A DNA stretch of 21,551 bases from Candidatus Heimdallarchaeota archaeon (GCA_019058275.1 JAHLVW010000023.1:1-21551), one strand, 5' to 3'; positions 6,743 through 21,046 are shown, counted from the first letter of the stretch. The notes: generated by a model not told the origin, from the sequence alone. Translations and numbers: made by a program.

Positions 6743-8254
6743 ATGAGTTGGTTATTAATGGTGATAACTGCTGAAGAGGTACGAATTATTGATAGTAATT
6801 GTGTAGAATTGGGAATGTCAGTTTTGCAATTAATGGAAAATGCCGGAGCAGCTGCAACAAAAATAACTGTAGAGAGTTTTCCAAAAGCAAGAACTGTTGC
6901 TCTCTGTTGTGGGACAGGCAATAATGGTGGAGATGGTTTTGTAGTAGCGAGACATTTAACTCATCATAACAAAAAAGTAAAGCTATTATTGGTTGGGCAA
7001 GAAACTAAGATTCATTCTAAAGTAGCTACACAGAATTTTCGAATCTTGAAAGAGATGGAGCAAACAATAGAAATTAGCACAATAAATGACTCATCTAAGA
7101 TTTCTTTTCTTAAGAAAGAATTAGTGGAAGTTGATCTAATAGTAGATGCATTATTGGGAATTGGTATCACAAGCGAGCCATATGAACCAATTAAAAGTGC
7201 TATAAAAACCATCAATAATTCAGGTAAAAGCATTATAAGTATAGATATACCGTCTGGCATGTGGTCAGATTTAGCTAAAAAACCAAAACTTATGATAAAG
7301 GCTGATAAGATTGTTACTTTCCATGATACAAAACCTTGTTTAACTATAGAGGAACTCAAAGAAAAAACAGTTATTGTTGGAATTGGAGTACCACCCGAGG
7401 CTGAATTCTTTGCAGGAAAAGGTGATCTAAAATATGCTATTCCAAGAAGAAAATCAGATTCACATAAAGGTCAAAACGGCACTGTGTTAGTTGTTGGTGG
7501 TAGTCTCAAATATTCTGGTGCTCCAGTACTGGCATCAAAAGCAGCATTACGAACAGGTGCTGATTTAGTAATCACTTGTATACCTAAGAGCATTTCAAAT
7601 GCAGTTAGGTCTGATTCTCCAAATATGATTGTTCAATCATTTGATGGAGATTATTTTACTCCTGAATCAATACCAGAAATTTTGGAATTGTTTAAAAAAT
7701 TTGATTCAATGGTATTGGGTCCTGGTATAAGTGAAAACAAAAAATCACTTGAATTTGTAGAAAACCTTCTTCTAAAGATTCCTAAGAATAAACCCATAAT
7801 TGTTGATGCTGATGCTTTAAAAATAATGAAAAGTAACCTTAAGGATTTACAAGAAAAGAAGCTAATTATTACACCACATTCAGGTGAATTTAAAATCATA
7901 TTTGACAAAGCTCCTAATGAAGATTGGTCCGAAAGAGCTAAATTTGTAACAAATACTGCTAAAGAGAACAAAACTACTATCCTCCTAAAAGGAAAGTATG
8001 ATATAATAAGTGATGGAGAGAATACCAAAATCAATAGAACTGGTCATGTTGGAATGACTGTGGGCGGAACAGGAGATGTTTTAGCTGGAATCCTTGGTGC
8101 AATCTGTGCTGTTAATGAGAACCTATTCAGATCATCTTGTGCAGCATCTTACCTTGCCGGAAAAGCTGGAGAATTAGCTGCTGAGGATTTTGGTAATAGT
8201 TTGTTAGCTACCGATGTTATAGAAAAAATACCTGAAATTTTATTGCAATTATAG
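6743..8254 (+). CDS. nnr: Bifunctional NAD(P)H-hydrate epimerase/dehydratase (YjeF-N + YjeF-C)
   Basis: LMENAG, CGTGNNGGDG, IVDALLG, SIDIPSG, R..DSHKG.NG, GGS..YSGA, GPG, VDADAL, ITPH.GEF, LLKG and GGTGDVLAG. The true start may be the ATG at 6758. Confidence 0.95.
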   Translation: MSWLLMVITAEEVRIIDSNCVELGMSVLQLMENAGAAATKITVESFPKARTVALCCGTGNNGGDGFVVARHLTHHNKKVKLLLVGQETKIHSKVATQNFRILKEMEQTIEISTINDSSKISFLKKELVEVDLIVDALLGIGITSEPYEPIKSAIKTINNSGKSIISIDIPSGMWSDLAKKPKLMIKADKIVTFHDTKPCLTIEELKEKTVIVGIGVPPEAEFFAGKGDLKYAIPRRKSDSHKGQNGTVLVVGGSLKYSGAPVLASKAALRTGADLVITCIPKSISNAVRSDSPNMIVQSFDGDYFTPESIPEILELFKKFDSMVLGPGISENKKSLEFVENLLLKIPKNKPIIVDADALKIMKSNLKDLQEKKLIITPHSGEFKIIFDKAPNEDWSERAKFVTNTAKENKTTILLKGKYDIISDGENTKINRTGHVGMTVGGTGDVLAGILGAICAVNENLFRSSCAASYLAGKAGELAAEDFGNSLLATDVIEKIPEILLQL

Positions 8255-8293: not shown

Positions 8294-9040
8294 TCAGCTC
8301 CAATTTCGAGGATAAGGTATTGAATCAATAAACTCAAGAAAGAGATCAACTGTGTTTTCAATTTGTTCCTCTTCATATTCAAAGATAGACTCAAATTGCA
8401 TGCCTACATCTTTAATTTCTTCTCGTAAAGATAACCACAAAGTATTGTTTCTTGTTTTAGCTAAAAGTCTCAAAACATTCTCATTAGAAAGTAATTTTGT
8501 TGCCATTTTAACATTATTTGTTTTAATAATGAAAAATTCTTCTAGGAAACCAGTTGTAGGTATTGCTTTTAGTTCCATGAAATATTCTTGATCACCTTTC
8601 AGAACTTTCTTTCTTTTCTTAGATAAGATCTCAAGAGAAAAAGGTGGTCTTCTTCTGAGATTTGCTGAGAGTGTATATTTATCTTTACTTTTCTTTATCT
8701 TATCCCAAATAAATGCGATAAAGAAAGGTCTGCCCAATGGAATTCCAAGAACAACTAAGGACCTCATTGGTGCATCTTTTGTTGGGCGTGCTACTAATTG
8801 ATAACGTTCCTTCTCCTGTGTAACCTTCTCAAAAGATTCACAAATATCATTTAGTGGTACAGCGATTTTTGATAGCATTTCAAGAGCAAATTGCTTATTT
8901 TTCTTTTTACCAATTAGATAACTTGCCAAATATGCTCCTAGGATTAGAATTGAAGGAGATAATGCTATCACATATTGGGACCATTCAGCCATTGCTTTCC
9001 ACGAGGTTAATCTTGTGTAATATCTATTTAAATTTATCAT
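8294..9040 (-). CDS. CCDC47 / DUF1682 (PAT complex subunit)-like single-pass membrane protein
   Basis: One N-terminal TM followed by AYLASYLIGKKKNKQFA, resembling human CCDC47 AYIMNYIIGKNKNSRLA as I recall it. A colinear alpha/beta domain follows (LGRPFFIAFI...SKD; LEEFFIIKTN; VLRLL...TLWLSLRE; LFLEFID). The likely start is the ATG at 8992 (MAEWSQ). Confidence 0.65.
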   Translation of the reverse strand: MINLNRYYTRLTSWKAMAEWSQYVIALSPSILILGAYLASYLIGKKKNKQFALEMLSKIAVPLNDICESFEKVTQEKERYQLVARPTKDAPMRSLVVLGIPLGRPFFIAFIWDKIKKSKDKYTLSANLRRRPPFSLEILSKKRKKVLKGDQEYFMELKAIPTTGFLEEFFIIKTNNVKMATKLLSNENVLRLLAKTRNNTLWLSLREEIKDVGMQFESIFEYEEEQIENTVDLFLEFIDSIPYPRNWS

Positions 9041-9112
9041 TATACTTCTAAATAGAAGAAAATTAGAATTAAGAATTAAAAATATGAAAATTAAAAATAA
9101 GAAAAATTTGAG

Positions 9113-9796
9113 CTATGTGTATAAACTAACCCAACCAGATTTTTTGATGTTTGGGGCATAAACAACACGTAATCTTCTTAGCAAAACACCATTTTCATCT
9201 TCAGAAGGTTGGAATTCAATCACTCCATCAACAAATGCTTTAATCCCTTGAATTACTTTTTCATCCATCATTCCTGAATGAGCAATAATCAATCCACTAT
9301 GTTTCTTCTGTTTCAATCTAGCAACTTGTGCTTGAATGAAATCTAAAATGGCTATGCCACTGTTGTAAATTGATAGAGTAGATACAGTGTTTATTACAAG
9401 TCTAAGTTTTTGTTTAGTATCGATCATCTTCTTGATTATAACGCTGAGACCTGTAAGATCTCTAATGTTATCAACAGCTAGCATACTTAGATCAGCTTTT
9501 TCACCTGTTCTATAAGAAAATATATCTATGAATTCCAATTGTTTAGCATCTAAAAATGGACTTGGATCTGTTCCTAGTTGTTTCATCTTTTCAATAATAT
9601 CATCAGGAAAATCATCAGCAGCAACGTAAATACCATTATTTTTTTCGGTAAAACCATCAAGCATGTACTGTAACGCAAATGCTTCTTTTCCTGCACCGGG
9701 TGGACCTACAATAAGATAGATTTGTGCATCTGTCTGTCCGACTAGATCCTTCAAATGGACGATATTACTACTTACTGACAACTTTAATTCCTTCAT
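9113..9796 (-). CDS. RAD55/KaiC-like single-domain RecA-superfamily ATPase with degenerate Walker motifs
   Basis: YLIVGPPGAGKEAF (Walker A, E at the T/S position), GIYV, LEFID.F, RLVINTVSTL (Walker B with D to N), VDGVIEF and RRLRV. Confidence 0.85.
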   Translation of the reverse strand: MKELKLSVSSNIVHLKDLVGQTDAQIYLIVGPPGAGKEAFALQYMLDGFTEKNNGIYVAADDFPDDIIEKMKQLGTDPSPFLDAKQLEFIDIFSYRTGEKADLSMLAVDNIRDLTGLSVIIKKMIDTKQKLRLVINTVSTLSIYNSGIAILDFIQAQVARLKQKKHSGLIIAHSGMMDEKVIQGIKAFVDGVIEFQPSEDENGVLLRRLRVVYAPNIKKSGWVSLYT

Positions 9797-9802
9797 TTAT
9801 TA

Positions 9803-10582
9803 CTAATTCACTTTTTTGATGTTTTTAAGCATATACTCCAAGATTGCCCAACCAAAATCATAACATCTTTCCGCAAATTCTGTTACATTGTTGATTTTTG
9901 CTCCCAATCTGAAATCTCGAGCATCTATAGCTACTTTGGGATCAACCTTAATCTTTACTTTCTCGGCAAATAGCTCCGGAACATTATACCTATTGAAGTT
10001 CTTTTCACCCATGAATATTAATAAAGCTTGAGCACAACCTATAGCTGCTTCACTTCCGTAAAATCCTAATTCATCTTGTGCATCAGCTGGAGCGTTTAGG
10101 AAGCCATCACGCATGATAAAGATATTATCAAGACATATTTGAGTGGCTCCTTTCTTGATTTTGTTTTCATTCACTTTTAATTTAACAAATGGATTTTCTT
10201 TACCGATTTTTAGTTCTCCTTGTTGACCCGTTGATATATGAACCCAATTAACAATACTTGATGCATTGATATTTTCTTCATTTAAATCCTCTTCGAAGAA
10301 GACCATTAGATCAAGTATAGATGAATACTGTGGATCATTTTCAAATTCTGCTTTTACCTTCCCGATTTTTTGTAGTATTTCTACTTGTTTATCTCGGTCT
10401 TTTTTAATTACTAAGTAGAAATCACAATCGGAATCTCCCTTAACATAATTTTTCTGTGCAACACTGCCAACGAGTAGTAAAGCAGTAATTTCATTTCCTA
10501 CTTCCTTCTTTAGTTTAGCAGTTAGTTTTAGTATTAAGGCATCATATTCGTCTGGAATTTTCCTTTTTGTTGGTGTGCTCAC
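9803..10582 (-). CDS. Pol-beta-family nucleotidyltransferase (MNT/KNTase-like) with C-terminal helical domain
   Basis: LLVGSVA..NY..GDSDCDFYLV (GS and DxD) and a third acidic residue in ILDLMV. The C-terminal helical bundle (SEAAIGCAQALLIFMGE) is HEPN/KNTase-C-like. GTG start with GGAGG at 10593-10597 on the minus strand. Confidence 0.8.
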   Translation of the reverse strand: MSTPTKRKIPDEYDALILKLTAKLKKEVGNEITALLLVGSVAQKNYVKGDSDCDFYLVIKKDRDKQVEILQKIGKVKAEFENDPQYSSILDLMVFFEEDLNEENINASSIVNWVHISTGQQGELKIGKENPFVKLKVNENKIKKGATQICLDNIFIMRDGFLNAPADAQDELGFYGSEAAIGCAQALLIFMGEKNFNRYNVPELFAEKVKIKVDPKVAIDARDFRLGAKINNVTEFAERCYDFGWAILEYMLKNIKKVN

Positions 10583-10670
10583 TTTCTTTTTTCCTCCAAT
10601 CGTTCCAAATTTTTTTAGTTGTTACGTTCTTTTATCACATTAATATCTTCTAAATAAAAACTTTCTTTTT

Positions 10671-11507
10671 TCAGTCTTTTTCAGTCAAATCTTCAATCTT
10701 AAGTTTTTTCTCTTCCTCAGGTATTCGTTCAACAATCTTTTCTCTCTGTATGTTTTCTTTTATTATACAGATTTTTTGTCCCAAGTTAAGTTGAACATCG
10801 ATATCACCGATATTATATAGCTTTAGTAAAATATTGTAAACTTGCTCATCTGTTATTCCATACTCTTCAGCTATTTCATTGAATGTGATTTCAACAACTT
10901 TCTTCATTTCAAGTTCTTCAATCATTTCCTTAATTGATTCTTCTAACATATCAATTGGGAGAAATGTATGTAAGGATTTGATGTAATAACCTTCGACTTT
11001 CCCATCTGCAATTAAAGACATGAGTAGATCTTTAGTCACAGATCGTTTAAGCTCCAATTCATCAGCAACTTCATGAAGATCAACTTCAACACTAAGATTT
11101 ACTTGTTGGAAAAGTAGATCTAAGGCTGTTTTTCGGGTAATCATTTTACCATCTTTTCTGGAAAGCATGTTGATTCTATTACTTGCTATGAGTTTAATAA
11201 CATCAGCATTCCAATTATTTTCTTGGGCAATTTTATCTAAATCACAAATGCCTTTTGCTTTAATTAATCTTACAATATCCTTGACTTCAGAAGAAATAAG
11301 AGAAATATAAACTCCTTCAGGAATTATTACTGAACCAGTAACTTCATTGTTGTCGATCATTTTACTGATTTGAAATGCAAGGTACCTTCTTGCACTTTCT
11401 TCAAAAGGATTACCTAAATCTAAGTATTCAACATCTTTTATTGCTTTTAGGATATCTTTTTTCGGAATAGATTTCTTCTTCTTTTTGTCTTTTTTCTGAG
11501 AAGGCAT
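10671..11507 (-). CDS. Tandem winged-helix (PCI-like) protein resembling DDRGK1 C-terminus plus UFL1 N-terminus
   Basis: About four WH repeats (e.g. VDLHEVADELEL...LIADGKVEG; ITFNEIAEEYGI...LYNIGDID) and a Lys-rich N-terminus. Residues ~19-98 align by eye to the DDRGK1 WH region and residues ~103-124 to the UFL1 partial WH. GGAG precedes the ATG. Confidence 0.65.
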   Translation of the reverse strand: MPSQKKDKKKKKSIPKKDILKAIKDVEYLDLGNPFEESARRYLAFQISKMIDNNEVTGSVIIPEGVYISLISSEVKDIVRLIKAKGICDLDKIAQENNWNADVIKLIASNRINMLSRKDGKMITRKTALDLLFQQVNLSVEVDLHEVADELELKRSVTKDLLMSLIADGKVEGYYIKSLHTFLPIDMLEESIKEMIEELEMKKVVEITFNEIAEEYGITDEQVYNILLKLYNIGDIDVQLNLGQKICIIKENIQREKIVERIPEEEKKLKIEDLTEKD

Positions 11508-11752
11508 ATTTTAGCTCCAAATTGTGATTAGTTTATTTCTTAATGTAATTTTTATTCAAGAAATTTCGTATTTCTATCAGCAAATAGCTATTTAAAAATT
11601 CATCTAGAAGGATTAGATATCAAAATTTAAATTATACTGTTAAACGTAAGATTTTTAAAACAAACATTAACCATCAAATGATAGCTACAAAATATATCTA
11701 TAAAGAAAAATAGCAAAAAAAATTGTTAAGAAAAAATTGGAGATTATAAAAA

Positions 11753-12061
11753 ATGGAATACCTTCACGCTTCATTAATTCTTCATTCCGCTGGAAAGAAA
11801 ATAACAGAAAAAGCCGTTGGTGATATACTCACAGCTGCTGGTGTTACACCAGACAAGAACCGAATCAAAGGTCTAGTTGCCGCACTTGCTGATGTTAAAA
11901 TCGAAGATGCTCTAAAATCTGCTGCTGTTATGCCTACTGTTACTGCTGCTCCAGCTGCAGCACCTGCTAAAGATGCTACTGTACCTGCTAAAGCTGCTGC
12001 TGCCACACCAGAACCAGAAGAGGAAGAAGAAGAATCAGGATTGAGTTCTCTCTTCGGTTAA
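11753..12061 (+). CDS. rpl12: Archaeal 50S ribosomal stalk protein P1 (L12)
   Basis: MEYLHASLILHSAGKKITE...L.AAGV, an Ala/Pro-rich hinge, an acidic tail and a C-terminal GLSSLFG. Confidence 0.97.
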   Translation: MEYLHASLILHSAGKKITEKAVGDILTAAGVTPDKNRIKGLVAALADVKIEDALKSAAVMPTVTAAPAAAPAKDATVPAKAAAATPEPEEEEEESGLSSLFG

Positions 12062-13463: not shown

Positions 13464-15110
13464 TCATTTGATGTCCCTTTGGATTATTTTCTCTTCAATT
13501 TCAATACCAATAGCCATTTGAACAACAGAATCTATTCTTTTCTTTCCTGATTTGTTTATTGATACTTGCATTCTTCTAAAATGTTTCATCACTAGCTCTC
13601 TAGCTTCTTCTCGAGAGATTTTTTTTCCATGACTATTAAAGATACCATAGATAATTGTCTCTCCTACTGAAACTTCATCATGAACAATATTTAAGCAACG
13701 TTGATACATTGATTGTATCTGCGAATCAAGAATTCTTCGAGCGTTTTTTACATCTTGTGATCTTAGACCTCTTCTTAAAGCAGCATCAATCATATTAATA
13801 ATATCTTTTTCAGGAATACCAAGGTCTAATTCTGTAGGTTCATCAGGAACAATTAGATCTTTTGGATCAGCTTTTATACTACCAACAATGTAGTTTAAGA
13901 CAAATTGTATCAAATAATCTAAAATAACAGCTTCTTGCATTTCCATATCTGTTGGTTTTTTTCCTTTGATCTTAAATCTGCCAAGAGCCCGGTTTAATCT
14001 TAATTTATCACTCTTGTAATATGTAGTAACATAATCGAAATGTTTTGGTATTTTACTTAGAAACTCTTGAGCCAAATTACAATAATCCATTAGCATCGCT
14101 AGAATTTCTCTGCCAATATTTAATGGTTGATCAGAAATTCTTGCTTCTTTCCATGCTTCAACTAAAATCTTCTCTGCTAACCCCTTCTTAGCTAGTTTGT
14201 CTTTATAGTTTAAAGTCAGGAGGTTATATTCCAATTTAGCTTGCGGAGTTGCTGTTGATAATCCTAAAGCTGATTCTAATTGAAATCTCATAATTAACTT
14301 GCCCATATCTTGCTGAGCTGTAAAATCACCTATTTTTTTCTCATATCTTTGAGAGAGTAACCATAAGATAATATCTGCAAGACCTTTAGAAGTCATCTCT
14401 TCTAAAGGTTGTTTTAAATCTTCATATAGAATTTCTGCTTCTATTATAGATCGAATAATCCAATTTGTTTGATCTGCATTTGCTAATATCTCTCCAAGGA
14501 CTTCTACTTGATCACTTAATTCTTTTTTAGCTTCCTTCATTTGTTTGGAAATATCTTTTGAACCATCTAAACCAATAATACTTGCATAGATTCTACTGGC
14601 TGCTACATATTCAATGGAACCAGCATGTTCCTCTACCCATTTCTCAATAACTGGTATGATTTTATTTGCTGCAATGAATTGTCTTTCCATCATTATTTGA
14701 GTTGCTAATGTAATTAAATCTGAATCTTTTAATTTACTCAATTTGGAAATAAGCGATTGGAAATTCTTAATGTCATCAACAAGGTTTTTTGCCAAAGTTC
14801 CTCTAAGAAAAGCAATCCATTTTCCTTCAGCAATAGCAAAATTGTACATATAAGTCTCTACTGGAGGAATATTACTATTAGCCTGTTCCAATCTTTTCAT
14901 TTCGTAGTAGAGATCTGCCAAAATTAACTTAGGTTCAATATCCAAATCATTGTTTAAAAGATAAATTACTCCCGCAAACTCTTGTGGACTATCATATTTA
15001 GCTGCAGTTTCAACTACTTTTTCTAAAGTTATTTTATCAACTCGGGTCAAGAGATCAGCAAAATTCTCTCCTAGTGGTATTCCTGCATTTTCCTGGTCTG
15101 AAAAGGACAT
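13464..15110 (-). CDS. Hypothetical soluble, predominantly alpha-helical protein
   Basis: 548-aa ORF with GGAGG at 15123-15127 on the minus strand; no TM segments and no motif recognised. Confidence 0.8.
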   Translation of the reverse strand: MSFSDQENAGIPLGENFADLLTRVDKITLEKVVETAAKYDSPQEFAGVIYLLNNDLDIEPKLILADLYYEMKRLEQANSNIPPVETYMYNFAIAEGKWIAFLRGTLAKNLVDDIKNFQSLISKLSKLKDSDLITLATQIMMERQFIAANKIIPVIEKWVEEHAGSIEYVAASRIYASIIGLDGSKDISKQMKEAKKELSDQVEVLGEILANADQTNWIIRSIIEAEILYEDLKQPLEEMTSKGLADIILWLLSQRYEKKIGDFTAQQDMGKLIMRFQLESALGLSTATPQAKLEYNLLTLNYKDKLAKKGLAEKILVEAWKEARISDQPLNIGREILAMLMDYCNLAQEFLSKIPKHFDYVTTYYKSDKLRLNRALGRFKIKGKKPTDMEMQEAVILDYLIQFVLNYIVGSIKADPKDLIVPDEPTELDLGIPEKDIINMIDAALRRGLRSQDVKNARRILDSQIQSMYQRCLNIVHDEVSVGETIIYGIFNSHGKKISREEARELVMKHFRRMQVSINKSGKKRIDSVVQMAIGIEIEEKIIQRDIK

Positions 15111-15356: not shown

Positions 15357-16826
15357 TTGAACGAAGAGGATTTGCCATTTAATTTAGAAACAACAGATAA
15401 GGAAATCGATAATAACCTAGTAAGTCATGAAGAGGAAGCTGGATTCTTTCGTAAAGCTTGGAAATGGTTGACTGAAGATAAAGAAAAACTAGGATCTATA
15501 ATATTTCTCTCTCTTTTTATTATTCTTATAATAGTTCTAGCAGCTCTAAATCTCAATCTTGGAGAAATAATGTCAAATATTATAGATTGGTTTTATGATA
15601 AATTAACCATTTGGGGTATCTATTTAGGAGTCTTTCTAATTTCGATTTTTGGCAACTTTACTGTCATTTTTCCTGTTCCCTATACTTTAGCTTTAATTGC
15701 TGTTGCTCAAGAAGATTATATTTTATGGTACCATATTTTAATAATGGGTTTATTTGCTGGTGCTGGAGCAGCACTAGGTGAAACATCTGCTTGGCTTTTA
15801 GGTAAAGCCTCAAAAAATGTAATCAAAGATGGAATGGAAAAACAAGTTGCAAGAGCTCAAAAATGGATTGATAAGGGTATAGCTCCAATAATGATCCTTT
15901 TATTTGCTGCTACACCACTACCTGATGATGCAATTTTAATTTTCATTGGTTTGTTAGGGTACGCTCTTTGGAAAACAGTTATATGGTGCTTTTTAGGAAA
16001 GATTATCCTAACATCATTCACTGGTTTAATTGCTAAATTCATCGGTGATACAAATACAGGTCAAGTAATTCTAAGATTATTTGGATTAACAGATCAGAAA
16101 ACTCCTGCATGGCAATCTGCTCTAACTTGGATTGGAACTATAGTTTTAATTGGAGTAATAATCTTTGTTGACTGGGGGGATGTATGGAATAAGCTTACCC
16201 GTTCAATGCTTAAAAGAAAATATTCTTTTTTAGTTAAAACAGATATAACACAGCAACAACCAACAATGGTTGCTTTAACGAGTGATTTAGCACCAGAAAC
16301 AGGGGTACCAGTCACTTCTGATAGTACATTATGGCAATGTGTTTTGCAAGATGAAAAGGAAGAACATCCAAATTACTTTGATTTCTATACTGTTTCATAT
16401 GTTTTAGGGAAATCTGCAAACATACTTTTGGAACCTGGTTGGTATGAAAAATTCGAGAATAATGTTTTAGAAAAGCGTTTCTTGAAAACTAATCACTATA
16501 AATTACAAAAAATCATTACAGGTAAAGAAACTCCAGAAGAAGATGAAGAAACTCAAGATATGCAAGATGATATAGCTGATAAGATGATGTATGTATCATT
16601 TAATTCAATGCATCCTGAGACAAATAAAAACTACAAAATTGGATTTCTACTTGAACGACTTCCTGAAGATAAGCTAAAAATAAAGTGTATTAGTGAAAGA
16701 GAAGCTTTAGCAATTAAAAGCTTTAAATCAGTTCATTCTGAATTGGTCCTGTCAAAGCTAGTCCTTTTGTTAAACAATCTGTCAGACAACCCTGAAAGTG
16801 TTAAGAAAGCTACTGTTGCATTCTAA
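15357..16826 (+). CDS. DedA/VTT (SNARE-associated; VMP1/TMEM41 superfamily) membrane protein with long C-terminal soluble extension
   Basis: N.T..FPVP re-entrant motif, GAGAALGETSAWLLG, FAATPLPDD...I..G and FLGK. TTG start 8 nt after GGAGG (15344-15348). About 200 aa of hydrophilic tail. Confidence 0.85.
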   Translation: MNEEDLPFNLETTDKEIDNNLVSHEEEAGFFRKAWKWLTEDKEKLGSIIFLSLFIILIIVLAALNLNLGEIMSNIIDWFYDKLTIWGIYLGVFLISIFGNFTVIFPVPYTLALIAVAQEDYILWYHILIMGLFAGAGAALGETSAWLLGKASKNVIKDGMEKQVARAQKWIDKGIAPIMILLFAATPLPDDAILIFIGLLGYALWKTVIWCFLGKIILTSFTGLIAKFIGDTNTGQVILRLFGLTDQKTPAWQSALTWIGTIVLIGVIIFVDWGDVWNKLTRSMLKRKYSFLVKTDITQQQPTMVALTSDLAPETGVPVTSDSTLWQCVLQDEKEEHPNYFDFYTVSYVLGKSANILLEPGWYEKFENNVLEKRFLKTNHYKLQKIITGKETPEEDEETQDMQDDIADKMMYVSFNSMHPETNKNYKIGFLLERLPEDKLKIKCISEREALAIKSFKSVHSELVLSKLVLLLNNLSDNPESVKKATVAF

Positions 16827-19586: not shown

Positions 19587-20141
19587 ATGTCAAAACAAAA
19601 TAAAAAGGATTCTGATGAGAAAGAAGTAATAAAAAAAGAAGAGAAAATCGATTTAAGGATCTCTTCCAGGGAAAAAGAGCTATTTAGAGAAGAAGCTAGA
19701 AAGCGAGAGATGAACCTTACAGAGTTTATTTTATCAACTATGAGATTAGAAGTTCGAGGAAAACAACGTGCTGCTGGATCAGGTGTAGATAATTTAATGC
19801 TGCAGCAGATTATTGAAAGATTAGAAAAATTAGAGAAATTGGTCCAGACTGGAAATTTGAAGATCGATACATTAAGTGATGCAGCAGAATTTGATGTAAG
19901 TGACAATGAAAAAATAACTCATGTAGAGTTTCTCTATAAATTACTGCAGCTAAAGGAATTTAGAAAGAAAACCCAGGAAGAAATTTTAAAATCAATAATT
20001 GAAAAATATCCGGATATGAAATCAGTTATTGAACCAACACCTGATAAACTCTATACCCCTTTGGACTTGGCAATTAGAAGAATAGAAAAAGAGGGATTAG
20101 TAAAAATTTCTACTAATGGAAACTTTCACTGGAAAGATTAA
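19587..20141 (+). CDS. Ribbon-helix-helix (CopG/MobC/DUF1778-like) DNA-binding protein with coiled coil and probable C-terminal winged helix
   Basis: KEEKIDLRISSREKELFREEARKREMNLTEFIL is an RHH pattern. IIERLEKLEKLV looks like a coiled coil, and LAIRRIEKEGLVKISTNGNFHW like a WH wing. Confidence 0.75.
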   Translation: MSKQNKKDSDEKEVIKKEEKIDLRISSREKELFREEARKREMNLTEFILSTMRLEVRGKQRAAGSGVDNLMLQQIIERLEKLEKLVQTGNLKIDTLSDAAEFDVSDNEKITHVEFLYKLLQLKEFRKKTQEEILKSIIEKYPDMKSVIEPTPDKLYTPLDLAIRRIEKEGLVKISTNGNFHWKD

Positions 20142-21046
20142 GCAACAATTTCTTCAGGAATCATTTTCTTATCTTTCAGTTGCTCCCTGAAGCGATCAAT
20201 TTTATCTTGTTCAGTAATTCCAAGGTATTCTTGTGTAGTGGCAATTGAACTATGACCTAGTATAAAGGAAACAGTATCAATTGATGCTCCAAGATCATAG
20301 AACATTATGCAAGCACAGGTTCGGCGTAATCTATGAGCATGAAAGTGGATATCAGTTTCATCAGTTATTTTTTTGAATTTCTTACAAAGCCATTCATAAC
20401 TAGGAGATGCTTCTGTGCGAGGAACAATTAGAAAACTTTTTTCAGTTGATCCTAATGAAAGCATCGATTCTCTAACTTCGAACCATTGTAAGAGATCAGG
20501 AATTTGAATATCTCTTATGGGAATTCTTCGTGTCTTTTTGCCTTTTCCTTTGCGAATAGTAATGAGTTTTTCATTAAAATCAAAATCAGAAATATTCAGG
20601 TTAAGCAATTCAGAAGCACGAACGCCAAAATTGATGATGAACCAACAAGCAAAGGTAAAAGTTTTGTTAAAAGCAGCTTTCTTAAACAAAAGCAAAACTT
20701 CTTTAGTTGATAACCTGGTTTTGATGGCTCCTTTCTCAAAACTAAATTGCTTGACATACTTTTGGATTCGTTTGAATTCCTTTAAAGGATAAGCATCCTC
20801 TTCATAAGCATACTCGAAAAAAAGTTGAATGGTTGAAAGATATCTCTTCACTGAAATATCTAGCAAACCACGATTAAGGCATTTCTGGGCATAAATAGCA
20901 ACATCGGTTTTAGTGAGTTCTAGTAAAGATTTTGGTTGCATGGCTTCTTGAAAAAGTTTGACATGAGATTTCCTATTAGTCAGTGAAACCTTTGAATAAG
21001 TAGCAATGCTGGCAAAGAAGCCAGCAATAAGATCAGAGTCATTCAT
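20138..21046 (-). CDS. Tyrosine recombinase / integrase (XerC/D-like fold)
   Basis: Full catalytic set: R (GVRASEL), K (RKGKGKK.R), HxxR (HRLRR), H (LGHSS) and Y (TTQEY). N-terminal SAM-like domain (SVKRYLSTIQLFFEY). Confidence 0.95.
   Translation of the reverse strand: MNDSDLIAGFFASIATYSKVSLTNRKSHVKLFQEAMQPKSLLELTKTDVAIYAQKCLNRGLLDISVKRYLSTIQLFFEYAYEEDAYPLKEFKRIQKYVKQFSFEKGAIKTRLSTKEVLLLFKKAAFNKTFTFACWFIINFGVRASELLNLNISDFDFNEKLITIRKGKGKKTRRIPIRDIQIPDLLQWFEVRESMLSLGSTEKSFLIVPRTEASPSYEWLCKKFKKITDETDIHFHAHRLRRTCACIMFYDLGASIDTVSFILGHSSIATTQEYLGITEQDKIDRFREQLKDKKMIPEEIVA

What the first reader, a model, noticed from the sequence alone, without database searches (positions are those of the whole stretch)
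8294..12061. Candidate ribosome-translocon quality-control locus: DDRGK/UFL1-like + nucleotidyltransferase + degenerate KaiC ATPase + CCDC47-like, divergent from ribosomal P1
Seen in sequence: four co-directional minus-strand genes share a 245-nt divergent intergenic region with rpl12. Established: the eukaryotic look-alikes of the first and last genes both act at the large-subunit/SEC61 junction. Inference: this could be an undescribed Asgard module for membrane-bound ribosome handling. One speculative model is that the nucleotidyltransferase supplies a covalent mark (NMPylation) in place of UFM1 and the RecA-fold protein acts as a sensor or adaptor. Caveat: an 88-nt gap (10583-10670) and a minus-strand U-rich tract at about 9055-9105 mean the four genes may not be one transcript.
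Basis: inference. Interest (0 to 1): 0.7.

Follow-up and report, generated by a model that had tools for sequence, protein, structure and literature searches.

The report
Asgard CCDC47-like gene with conserved partners
A Heimdall-group Asgard archaeon encodes trimmed-down relatives of two eukaryotic factors that work where the ribosome meets the ER (CCDC47 and UFL1/DDRGK1). Evolution keeps only the CCDC47-like membrane protein together with a nucleotidyltransferase and a dead KaiC-like protein; the UFL1-like and ribosomal P1 genes are neighbours in one genus only.

Summary
Four real minus-strand genes lie divergent from ribosomal P1: UFL1/DDRGK1-like, nucleotidyltransferase (NTase), KaiC-like and CCDC47-like.

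- **Look-alikes:** both are supported by fold and by weak but recurrent Pfam hits. The 4-winged-helix protein best matches UFL1 and a DDRGK1-UFL1 chimera (Foldseek E 1e-9). The membrane protein best matches CCDC47 chains in three translocon structures (Z 15.6, 14.1, 12.2) and mycobacterial TtfA (Z 11).
- **Four-gene module:** only partly supported. Within the genus the whole ~15 kb is collinear, which says nothing about function.
- **Conserved core:** NTase, then pseudo-KaiC, then CCDC47-like sit side by side in families f1, f5 and f6. They form a rearranged cluster in f4. In f9 the NTase directly precedes the CCDC47-like gene.
- **UFL1-like gene:** it joins this cassette only in f1. Its distribution across genomes is independent of the cassette (60/68 versus 0/68 in f14). 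No UFM1 or UFC1 was found in this genome.
- **Transcription:** conserved promoter-like boxes suggest three units: UFL1-like | NTase-KaiC | CCDC47-like.
- **Best reading:** a membrane-anchored NTase complex, perhaps at the translocon. Function is untested.

Earlier follow-ups in this scan reached the same conclusion on three other genomes. No held paper mentions both CCDC47 and Asgard.

The parts
8294..8992 (-). CCDC47/TtfA-fold membrane protein (232 aa from the conserved start M17; the ORF as listed runs to 9040). It has one N-terminal TM helix followed by GKKKNK and then a cytoplasmic alpha/beta domain. It lacks the lumenal domain and the C-terminal coiled coil of CCDC47.
   Evidence: AlphaFold model pLDDT 79. 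Foldseek top hits are 7tm3_4 (E 6e-7), 6w6l_7 and 9i78_4. VIA-align gives Z 15.6, 14.1 and 12.2 to these and 11.0 to TtfA 6t84; the next hit is 5.5. Pfam CCDC47 is hit in 22/22 orthologues (best E 1e-7) but below the cut-off here (23.5 bits against 27.7).
9029..9112 (-). Spacer between the KaiC-like and CCDC47-like genes. It holds several T5 runs (archaeal terminator-like) followed by a genus-conserved TGATAAATTTAA box (9040-9029, TATA-like) about 40 nt before the conserved start.
   Evidence: Sequence; alignment of 7 genus loci. The promoter and terminator roles are inferred, not shown.
9113..9796 (-). Single-domain KaiC/RecA-fold pseudo-ATPase (227 aa). Walker A is GPPGAGKE, the Walker B Asp is Asn, and the catalytic EE is DD.
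   Evidence: Pfam PF06745, E 4e-25. The family alignment shows a degenerate P-loop in every lineage: GESGTAKE, GTQSSIRQ, GQKNEFRD, GHVGYRRE.
9803..10582 (-). Pol-beta-type (MNT/NTP_transf_2) nucleotidyltransferase (259 aa). It has intact GS...GDSDCD...D motifs and a roughly 150-aa helical C-terminal domain. It lies 6 nt upstream of the KaiC-like gene.
   Evidence: Pfam Polbeta and NTP_transf_2, E about 7e-4. The family profile hits MNT-type NTases in the PDB at E 2.5e-6. G39, S40, S51, D52 and D91 are invariant.
10583..10670 (-). 88-nt spacer holding a genus-invariant AAAGAAAGTTTTTAT(T/G)TAG box (about 10669-10649, BRE/TATA-like) straight after the UFL1-like stop codon, and a conserved GGAGG about 10 nt before the NTase GTG.
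   Evidence: Alignment of 10 genus loci. The promoter role is inferred.
10671..11507 (-). Short single-chain UFL1/DDRGK1-like protein (278 aa). It has a Lys-rich disordered N-tail, four tandem winged-helix domains (16-68, 72-124, 125-184, 185-249) and a conserved tail ERIPEEEKKLxIEDLTxK.
   Evidence: Model pLDDT 80. The top 5 Foldseek hits are UFL1 or the DDRGK1-UFL1 chimera (E 1.4e-9 to 5e-7; the next family scores 8e-4). VIA-align covers 10-251 against chimera residues 0-254, Z 13.2. Pfam E3_UFM1_ligase is hit in 25/27 and DDRGK in 13/27 orthologues.
11508..11752 (.). 245-nt divergent spacer between the UFL1-like gene and P1. It contains an invariant TTTTAAAAATCTT block (about 11660-11648).
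   Evidence: It could serve either or both genes; this is unresolved.
11753..12061 (+). Ribosomal stalk protein P1 (102 aa). It is single-copy and detached from the L1-P0 operon, which lies on another contig.
   Evidence: TIGR03685, 105 bits. tblastn finds a single copy on C9, with L1 and P0 on C105.

Best explanation
The locus combines two things.

(1) A conserved Asgard three-gene cassette.
- It encodes an active-looking Pol-beta-type nucleotidyltransferase, a KaiC/RecA-fold protein that has lost its ATPase motifs, and a membrane protein.
- The membrane protein has one N-terminal TM helix and a cytoplasmic domain with the CCDC47/TtfA fold.
- I read these as one membrane-anchored complex.
- In that complex the CCDC47-like protein tethers it to the cytoplasmic face of the membrane, plausibly beside SecYEG-bound ribosomes as CCDC47 does in eukaryotes.
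- The dead KaiC would act as an adaptor or scaffold.
- The NTase would transfer a nucleotide to a still unknown substrate there (a protein side chain or an RNA 3' end).

(2) A short, single-chain, four-winged-helix member of the Asgard DDRGK1-UFL1 family, together with the ribosomal P1 gene.
- In this one family (f1) these came to lie upstream of the cassette.
- They are probably transcribed separately.
- This genome has no detectable UFM1 or UFC1, so the UFL1-like protein cannot be a UFM1 ligase here. It is more likely a ribosome- or partner-binding scaffold.

Shown: gene content, folds, motif states, and linkage patterns across families.
Inferred: complex formation, site of action, catalysis, and the transcription units.
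For: Cassette linkage beyond genus-level collinearity:
- NTase directly followed by the pseudo-KaiC in all 8 f2 loci inspected, across 4 genera.
- NTase, KaiC, CCDC47-like co-directional in f5 (gaps 14 and 49 nt) and in f6 (gaps 10 and 15 nt in L115; also L109).
- The same three genes clustered but rearranged in f4 (L107).
- NTase directly followed by the CCDC47-like gene in two f9 genomes.
- Contig coordinates add G244 (f6) and G048 and G297 (f4).

Folds and motifs:
- CCDC47 fold.
- Some relatives match the Pfam CCDC47 profile collinearly over positions 4-264 of 326.
- PF07946 hits only this gene in the genome and nothing in 14 control genomes.
- f2-type relatives carry a Lys/Arg/Glu-rich C-tail reminiscent of the CCDC47 coiled coil.
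- Positive residues after the TM helix predict a cytoplasmic domain, the same orientation as CCDC47 (sequence; PMC7505659).
- NTase catalytic residues are conserved. The KaiC P-loop is degenerate family-wide.

UFL1-like gene:
- Fold and Pfam evidence.
- About 790-aa Asgard proteins carry DDRGK and E3_UFM1_ligase domains in one chain, both over the Pfam cut-offs.
- UFM1 and UFC1 were not found over their cut-offs, in line with PMC10183829.

Transcription: conserved promoter-like boxes.
Against: - No expression, interaction or activity data exist. No RNA run was listed.
- In f2 and f3 the CCDC47-like gene is separated from the NTase-KaiC pair and instead sits beside a Ras-like GTPase, so the three genes are not obligately linked.
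- The Nnr gene is also a persistent neighbour of the CCDC47-like gene in f1, f2, f4, f5 and f9. Some linkage may therefore be inherited synteny rather than function.
- The window's CCDC47-like protein lacks the coiled coil that reaches the exit tunnel in eukaryotes.
- The fold is shared with TtfA, a lipid-transport factor, so a ribosome link does not follow from the fold.
- No fused forms were found (weak evidence).
- No sequence search reached eukaryotic CCDC47 directly.
Confidence: 0.45

Rival explanations
1. One reading: all four genes, and perhaps P1, form one ribosome-translocon quality-control module. The UFL1-like scaffold positions the NTase on membrane-bound ribosomes, and the NTase marks them by NMPylation in place of UFM1.
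For: - All four genes are adjacent and co-directional in 10/10 genus genomes where contigs allow.
- Both eukaryotic counterparts act at the 60S-SEC61 junction (PMC10937380, PMC7505659).
- In f2 the UFL1-like gene is followed by an OST3/OST6-like membrane protein, another translocon-associated family (27.6 bits against a cut-off of 27). In one f2 genome it lies 4 kb from L1-P0-P1.
- The f1-type UFL1-like protein has a lineage-specific conserved C-tail that could be a docking motif.
- No UFM1 or UFC1 was found.
Against: - The UFL1-like gene is linked to the cassette only in f1.
- It is not found in f5, f6, f7 and f9, which have the cassette. It is found in 60/68 f14 genomes, where the CCDC47-like gene is 0/68 and the NTase 3/68.
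- A conserved promoter-like box separates it from the NTase gene.
- Genus-level synteny covers unrelated genes too.
- UFL1 contacts the L1 stalk, not the P stalk, in eukaryotes (PMC10937380).
Confidence: 0.12
2. The genes are functionally unrelated neighbours. The recurrent adjacency reflects slowly decaying ancestral gene order around the Nnr gene in Heimdall-group genomes, and each protein acts on its own.
For: - Nnr, with no obvious functional tie, is as persistent a neighbour as the NTase.
- The cassette is split in f2 and f3.
- The sampled genomes are all related, so the occurrences are not independent.
Against: - NTase-KaiC spacing is 6-14 nt in several families, and NTase-KaiC-CCDC47 spacing is 10 and 15 nt in f6, typical of operons.
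- Order and orientation are kept across families whose proteins are only 20-35% identical, while the surrounding genes differ.
- f9 keeps NTase next to CCDC47-like after losing the KaiC gene from the site.
Confidence: 0.2
3. The NTase, pseudo-KaiC and TM protein form a defence or toxin-antitoxin-like system (CBASS- or MNT-like), with the membrane protein as the effector.
For: The NTase has weak similarity to CBASS cyclases and to a PADLOC candidate (PDC-S09, E 1.4e-6). MNT-type NTases are common in TA and defence loci.
Against: - No PADLOC hit for the other three proteins.
- The CCDC47-like and NTase genes are single-copy in most class genomes, though f3 genomes carry two NTase paralogues and many carry two CCDC47-like copies. 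Both genes are present in nearly all class genomes sampled.
- The genomic setting next to Nnr is conserved across families, and protein conservation is very high (74% mean column identity within the genus). This pattern is unlike mobile defence islands.
Confidence: 0.05

Closest known systems
Eukaryotic CCDC47 (PAT complex subunit; multipass, TMCO1 and SND3 translocons; Pfam PF07946; chains 7tm3_4, 6w6l_7, 9i78_4)
   Same: - One TM helix followed by a cytoplasm-facing globular alpha/beta domain of the same fold (Z 15.6 over 218 residues, model 22-248 against chain 135-402).
- Weak collinear Pfam similarity across the Asgard family.
- Some Asgard relatives (f2 type) also have a positively charged C-terminal tail.
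   Different: - No lumenal acidic domain.
[quoted passage not shown]
- The Pfam score is below the cut-off.
- No Asterix homologue was found (inconclusive).
- The partners here are an NTase and a dead KaiC, which are unknown for CCDC47.
- That these chains are CCDC47 is inferred from chain length, residue range and the component common to the three entries. The tool did not print it.
Mycobacterial TtfA (trehalose monomycolate transport factor A; PDB 6t84; Pfam PF28092)
   Same: Same fold of the soluble domain (Z 11.0, 156 residues, rmsd 3.6). It is among the nearest named clusters in the ESM Atlas, after CCDC47 (0.78 against 0.79, a lead only).
   Different: It is bacterial, works with the MmpL3 lipid transporter, has no detectable sequence similarity, and scores lower than the CCDC47 chains.
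Eukaryotic UFL1-DDRGK1 (UFBP1) scaffold of the UFM1 E3 ligase (Pfam PF09743, PF09756; PDB 8b9x, 8c0d, 8ohd, 8qfc)
   Same: - Tandem winged-helix array. The four WH domains align end to end with the minimal DDRGK1-UFL1 chimera.
- Recurrent Pfam hits to both families.
- It belongs to an Asgard family whose long members carry DDRGK and UFL1 domains in one chain.
- An Asgard origin of both proteins was proposed in PMC10183829.
   Different: - 278 aa against about 794 plus 314 aa.
- No DDRGK1 TM helix or ribosome-docking helix, no WH3-5, no C-terminal tRNA-site domain or PTC loop.
- No clear UFC1-binding helix.
- No UFM1 or UFC1 in the genome.
- Single WH domains match PCI domains equally well.
Archaeal single-domain KaiC-like proteins (ArlH/FlaH, GvpD P-loop domain; Pfam PF06745)
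   Same: RecA/KaiC fold, single domain of about 225 aa.
   Different: Walker A lacks the Ser/Thr here and lacks the Lys in several lineages. The Walker B Asp is replaced in f1 and f6. It is not orthologous to the intact 310-aa KaiC next to the UFL1-like gene in f2.
Minimal nucleotidyltransferases (MNT, NTP_transf_2; e.g. AF0614 1ylq, 9xbd_E; ANT(9) and KNTase-type two-domain enzymes)
   Same: GS / DxD / D catalytic signature and an N-terminal NTase fold signature. The two-domain size resembles KNTase and ANT enzymes.
   Different: There is no HEPN partner. The C-terminal domain is unassigned. f6 members add a helix-hairpin-helix-like extension. The substrate is unknown.

Membership tests
CCDC47 (PF07946) | Single TM helix followed by a cytosolic globular domain of the CCDC47 fold | tested here: met
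   VIA-align Z 15.6, 14.1 and 12.2 to three translocon chains, next unrelated hit 5.5; Foldseek E 6e-7; TM helix and a following Lys cluster seen in the sequence.
CCDC47 (PF07946) | Score over Pfam's curated cut-off | tested here: not met
   23.5 bits against 27.7, with only residues 31-74 matched. All 22 orthologues hit the family, best E 1e-7. The best of the ten wider-family members scanned individually scores 27.5 bits.
CCDC47 (PF07946) | Conserved positively charged C-terminal coiled coil reaching the exit tunnel | tested here: not met
   The model ends with the globular domain at residue 248. Lys/Arg/Glu-rich tails exist in f2-type relatives only.
CCDC47 (PF07946) | Binding to the ribosome and Sec61/SecY; partner Asterix | not testable with these tools
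   No interaction data. The PF03669 search of the genome found nothing, but the control genomes were also silent.
UFL1/DDRGK1 scaffold (PF09743, PF09756) | Tandem winged-helix array matching DDRGK1 WH, composite WH, UFL1 WH1 and WH2 | tested here: met
   The top 5 Foldseek hits are all UFL1 or the chimera. Alignment is end to end with 8b9x_B (235 residues, Z 13.2, but rmsd 10, so domain orientations differ).
UFL1/DDRGK1 scaffold (PF09743, PF09756) | Score over Pfam's cut-off | tested here: not met
   18.1 bits against 23.2 for the window's protein. It is met by f2-type relatives (27.6 and 29.2 bits) and by 788-aa Asgard forms (54-61 bits; DDRGK 45-65 bits).
UFL1/DDRGK1 scaffold (PF09743, PF09756) | UFM1 and its E2 (UFC1) encoded in the genome | tested here: not met
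   No match over the cut-offs for PF03671 or PF08694. The best hits score 17 and 15 bits inside unrelated long ORFs. The genome is 93% complete.
UFL1/DDRGK1 scaffold (PF09743, PF09756) | UFL1 C-terminal tRNA-site domain with PTC loop; DDRGK1 TM helix and docking helix | tested here: not met
   The protein is 278 aa: a disordered N-tail, 4 WH domains and a 25-aa tail.
KaiC/RecA-type ATPase (PF06745) | Pfam membership | tested here: met
   89.1 bits against a cut-off of 26.6.
KaiC/RecA-type ATPase (PF06745) | Intact Walker A GxxxxGK[ST] and Walker B Asp | tested here: not met
   GPPGAGKE and LVINTVS here; degenerate in every lineage of the family.
Pol-beta-type nucleotidyltransferase (PF01909, PF18765) | hG[GS] motif, [DE]x[DE] pair and a third acidic residue | tested here: met
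   G39-S40, D52-x-D54 and D91. G39, S40, D52 and D91 are invariant across 17 family members; D54 is Asn in two of them.
Pol-beta-type nucleotidyltransferase (PF01909, PF18765) | Score over Pfam's cut-off | tested here: inconclusive
   20.2 bits against 21 for PF01909. The family profile hits MNT-type NTases in the PDB at E 2.5e-6.
Ribosomal protein P1 (TIGR03685) | Equivalog score over the cut-off | tested here: met
   105.3 bits against 100.

The most novel reading that the evidence does not exclude
Before UFM1 existed, Heimdall-group archaea may have marked or remodelled membrane-bound ribosomes with a nucleotidyl group. A CCDC47-like anchor at the SecYEG-ribosome junction would recruit a dead-KaiC adaptor and an NTase. 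In this family a single-chain DDRGK1-UFL1-type scaffold would position the NTase on the large subunit. That would make the locus a prokaryotic forerunner of ER ribosome quality control.
Probability: 0.07. Interest if true: 0.9.

Novelty: new variant of a known kind. Interest (0 to 1): 0.55.

Why it matters
CCDC47 and the UFL1-DDRGK1 scaffold are regarded as parts of the eukaryotic ER translocon and its quality control. An Asgard origin has been proposed for UFL1 and DDRGK1. No paper in the held library mentions CCDC47 together with Asgard archaea.

A CCDC47-fold membrane protein is widespread in Heimdall-group and other Asgard lineages, and it has its own conserved partners. It would add a translocon-accessory factor to the list of eukaryotic signature proteins. 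It would also give a testable handle on what such factors did before there was an ER.

The report also corrects the more exciting four-gene model. The UFL1-like and P1 linkage is local to one family.

Tried and rejected
- **Sequence searches of the PDB:** single proteins and family profiles gave no significant CCDC47 or UFL1 hit. Homology to the eukaryotic proteins therefore rests on Pfam profiles and folds.
- **HMMER profile search of 1.8 billion representatives with the CCDC47-like family:** 35 proteins of 43-302 aa (most 200-300), none of eukaryotic CCDC47 length. Those that carry a name are Asgard.
- **Search for longer or fused forms:** nothing found, which is weak evidence.
- **RNA runs:** no RNA holder was listed, so no reads were laid.
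- **PADLOC:** no defence family beyond generic NTase similarity.
- **Asterix (PF03669):** no hit, but the control genomes were also silent.
- **Narrow genus-level CCDC47-like profile:** it under-detected the family (0 hits in f4, f5, f6 and f9). It was replaced by the broad profile.
- **Second UFL1-like copy in G008 (contig C96):** its genes are 53-77% identical (UFL1-like 38%) to f2 genes, against 20-40% for f1-f2 orthologues. I treat it as probable bin contamination, not a paralogue.
- **The f2 KaiC (310 aa, intact GSSGTGKT) beside the UFL1-like gene:** it is not the orthologue of the window's pseudo-KaiC. The idea that a 'KaiC next to UFL1-like' is a shared theme was dropped.
- **Sigma-70 promoter scan:** not run, because it does not cover archaeal promoters.

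Full report
**Observation**

The window is contig C9 of a 4.1-Mb Asgard MAG that is 93% complete. Database orthologues are labelled Heimdallarchaeota or Asgard group.

All four genes have orthologues at 60-94% identity in the ten other genomes of the genus.

The CCDC47-like ORF most likely starts at M17 (8992), not at 9040. Database orthologues start there. In one orthologous locus the codon aligned with 9040 is not a start codon.

**What each gene is**

*UFL1/DDRGK1-like (10671-11507).*
- The AlphaFold model (pLDDT 80) shows a disordered Lys-rich N-tail, four tandem winged-helix (WH) domains and a disordered but conserved C-tail.
- The five best Foldseek matches are all UFL1 or a DDRGK1-UFL1 chimera (E 1.4e-9 to 5e-7). 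The next family, SelB, scores 8e-4.
- VIA-align lays residues 10-251 on the whole chimera (Z 13.2). Single WH domains match PCI domains about as well.
- Pfam E3_UFM1_ligase is hit in 25 of 27 orthologues and DDRGK in 13, all below the cut-off for this protein. Relatives at about 25% identity in family f2 pass the cut-off.
- About 790-aa proteins of family f14 carry a DDRGK domain immediately followed by the UFL1 domain in one chain, both well over the cut-offs.
- The window's protein is therefore a short member of an Asgard single-chain DDRGK1-UFL1 family. This fits the proposal that both proteins arose in Asgard archaea before UFM1 (PMC10183829).
- The genome has no UFM1 or UFC1 over the cut-offs.
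- In eukaryotes this WH array lies on the 60S subunit and the complex contacts the L1 stalk, not the P stalk (PMC10937380).

*CCDC47-like (8294-8992).*
- The model (pLDDT 79) has a long N-terminal TM helix and an alpha/beta domain.
- Foldseek's best hits are chain 4 of 7TM3, chain 7 of 6W6L, TtfA (6T84) and chain 4 of 9I78.
- VIA-align gives Z 15.6, 14.1, 12.2 and 11.0, with the next hit at 5.5. The aligned chain range is 135-402.
- I infer that these chains are CCDC47. It is the component of that size shared by the three translocon entries, and the residue range fits a TM helix plus a cytosolic domain (PMC7505659). The tool does not print chain names.
- Pfam CCDC47 is the only family hit, in 22/22 orthologues. 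Some members of the wider family match it collinearly over profile positions 4-264 of 326.
- A six-frame scan of the genome with PF07946 hits only this gene, and nothing in 14 control genomes.
- No sequence search reached eukaryotic CCDC47 itself.
- Compared with CCDC47 the protein lacks the lumenal domain and the C-terminal coiled coil. f2-type relatives (about 300-315 aa) do carry a Lys/Arg/Glu-rich tail.
- No paper in the held library mentions both CCDC47 and Asgard.

*KaiC-like (9113-9796).* It is clearly a KaiC-fold protein (89 bits). However, its Walker A is GPPGAGKE and its Walker B Asp is Asn. In other lineages even the P-loop Lys is gone. It is a pseudo-ATPase.

*NTase (9803-10582).* It has weak Pfam hits, but the GS, DxD and third-Asp motifs are present. 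Four of these positions are invariant over 17 family members, and the second Asp is replaced in two. The family profile finds MNT-type NTases in the PDB at E 2.5e-6. f6 members add a helix-hairpin-helix-like C-terminal extension.

**Is it a module?**

Within the genus the collinearity extends over all neighbours: P-type ATPase, Nnr, aminotransferase and a 548-aa protein. It therefore carries no functional information. Other families do.

- **NTase and pseudo-KaiC.** In f2 the NTase is directly followed by the pseudo-KaiC in all eight loci inspected.
- **Full trio.** In f5 and f6 the order NTase, KaiC, CCDC47-like is kept, with gaps as small as 10-15 nt. In f4 the same three genes are clustered but rearranged. 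In two f9 genomes the NTase is directly followed by the CCDC47-like gene. One f9-type protein is labelled Hodarchaeota by its submitter.
- **Extra cases.** Contig coordinates add three more co-located cases.
- **Exceptions.** In f2 and f3 the CCDC47-like gene lies elsewhere, next to a Ras-like small GTPase. The same GTPase type precedes the cassette in one f6 genome.
- **UFL1-like gene.** Outside f1 it is never next to the cassette.
  - In f2 it is followed by an OST3/OST6-like protein and is divergent from a KaiC-roadblock-FIST-Ras operon.
  - In f4 it has other neighbours.
- **Distribution across genomes.**
  - The UFL1-like gene is found in f1, f2 and f4 and in f14 (60/68), plus scattered weaker matches in a few other families. 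It is not found in f5, f6, f7 and f9, nor in 18 of 21 f3 genomes.
  - The CCDC47-like family is found throughout the class and in many other Asgard families, but in 0/68 f14 genomes.
- **P1.** It is single-copy and detached from L1-P0, which lie on contig C105.

The conserved unit is therefore the three-gene cassette. The UFL1-like gene and P1 are lineage-specific neighbours.

**Transcription signals (inferred)**

- An invariant AAAGAAAGTTTTTAT(T/G)TAG box follows the UFL1-like stop codon, and a conserved GGAGG precedes the NTase start.
- The NTase and KaiC-like genes are 6 nt apart.
- T-runs and a conserved TGATAAATTTAA box precede the CCDC47-like start.
- This suggests three units: UFL1-like | NTase-KaiC | CCDC47-like.
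- No RNA run was listed.

**Mechanism**

The best reading is a membrane-anchored NTase complex. The CCDC47-like protein would be the anchor, the dead KaiC an adaptor, and the NTase the only catalytic part. It may act at the SecYEG-ribosome interface, by analogy with CCDC47.

This is inference. The same fold occurs in TtfA, a lipid-transport factor. The Nnr gene is an equally persistent neighbour. The cassette is split in two families.

The defence-system reading is unlikely. PADLOC finds no family beyond generic NTase similarity, the genes are mostly single-copy and inherited vertically, and their genomic setting is conserved.

**Relation to earlier work in this scan**

Three earlier follow-up reports on other genomes reached the same conclusion. 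I saw them only after reaching it independently.

This report adds:
- the conserved promoter-like boxes;
- the family-wide decay of the KaiC P-loop;
- the single-chain DDRGK-plus-UFL1 architecture of the long Asgard forms;
- the contrast in distribution between the UFL1-like gene and the cassette across about 300 genomes.

Noticed in passing
window 6743-8254 (+); L064-L066, L071, L072, L107, L108, L110, L112: The bifunctional NAD(P)HX repair gene (Nnr; YjeF_N plus carbohydrate kinase) lies within 0-3 kb of the CCDC47-like gene in families f1, f2, f4, f5 and f9, in varying orientation. In f4 it is co-directional and 46 nt upstream. This could be ancestral synteny or an unexplained functional tie.
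   Followed up: partly
own genome contig C61:40571-43166: Two tandem Ras-like small GTPases are followed by two tandem OST3/OST6-like membrane proteins. In f2 the OST3/OST6-like gene follows the UFL1-like gene, with a related GTPase in the divergent operon.
   Followed up: partly
L026 3173-8211; L024 6640-11864: In family f2 the UFL1-like gene and an OST3/OST6-like gene are divergent from an operon. That operon encodes an intact KaiC (310-322 aa), a roadblock-sized protein (119 aa, no Pfam hit), a FIST-domain protein, a Ras-like GTPase and a 105-128-aa protein. In one genome L1-P0-P1 lie just beyond the far (3') end of that operon, about 4 kb from the UFL1-like gene.
   Followed up: partly
L118 5405-7771 (-); L119 5929-8295 (-): 788-aa Asgard (f14) proteins carry DDRGK and E3_UFM1_ligase domains in one chain, plus a weak VPS28-like C-terminus. 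A DsbD_2 membrane protein is encoded just upstream.
   Followed up: partly
L067 7095-9790; L070: In family f3 the CCDC47-like gene is preceded by a JAB/MPN-domain protein (192 aa). In L067 it is followed by two Ras-like GTPases; in L070 only one fits before the contig ends.
   Followed up: no
L109 7497-8579; L115 1830-2963: f6 versions of the NTase carry a Lys-rich linker and a helix-hairpin-helix-like C-terminal extension. This hints at nucleic-acid binding.
   Followed up: no
window 15357-16826 (+): A 489-aa protein with a VTT domain (DedA/TMEM41/VMP1-type, PF09335, 37.9 bits).
   Followed up: no
window 13464-15110 (-): A 548-aa protein conserved across the genus (60-94% identity) with no significant Pfam family.
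   Followed up: no
window 19587-21046: A tyrosine integrase (302 aa) is convergent with a 184-aa protein that has a weak TacA-like antitoxin hit. This may be the end of an integrated element; earlier notes of the scan cover it.
   Followed up: no
L120 (G008 contig C96): A 6.8-kb contig in a genome of the same genus carries the complete f2-type UFL1-like/OST3/KaiC/roadblock/FIST arrangement. Identity to f2 genes is 53-77% (38% for the UFL1-like gene). This is probably bin contamination.
   Followed up: partly
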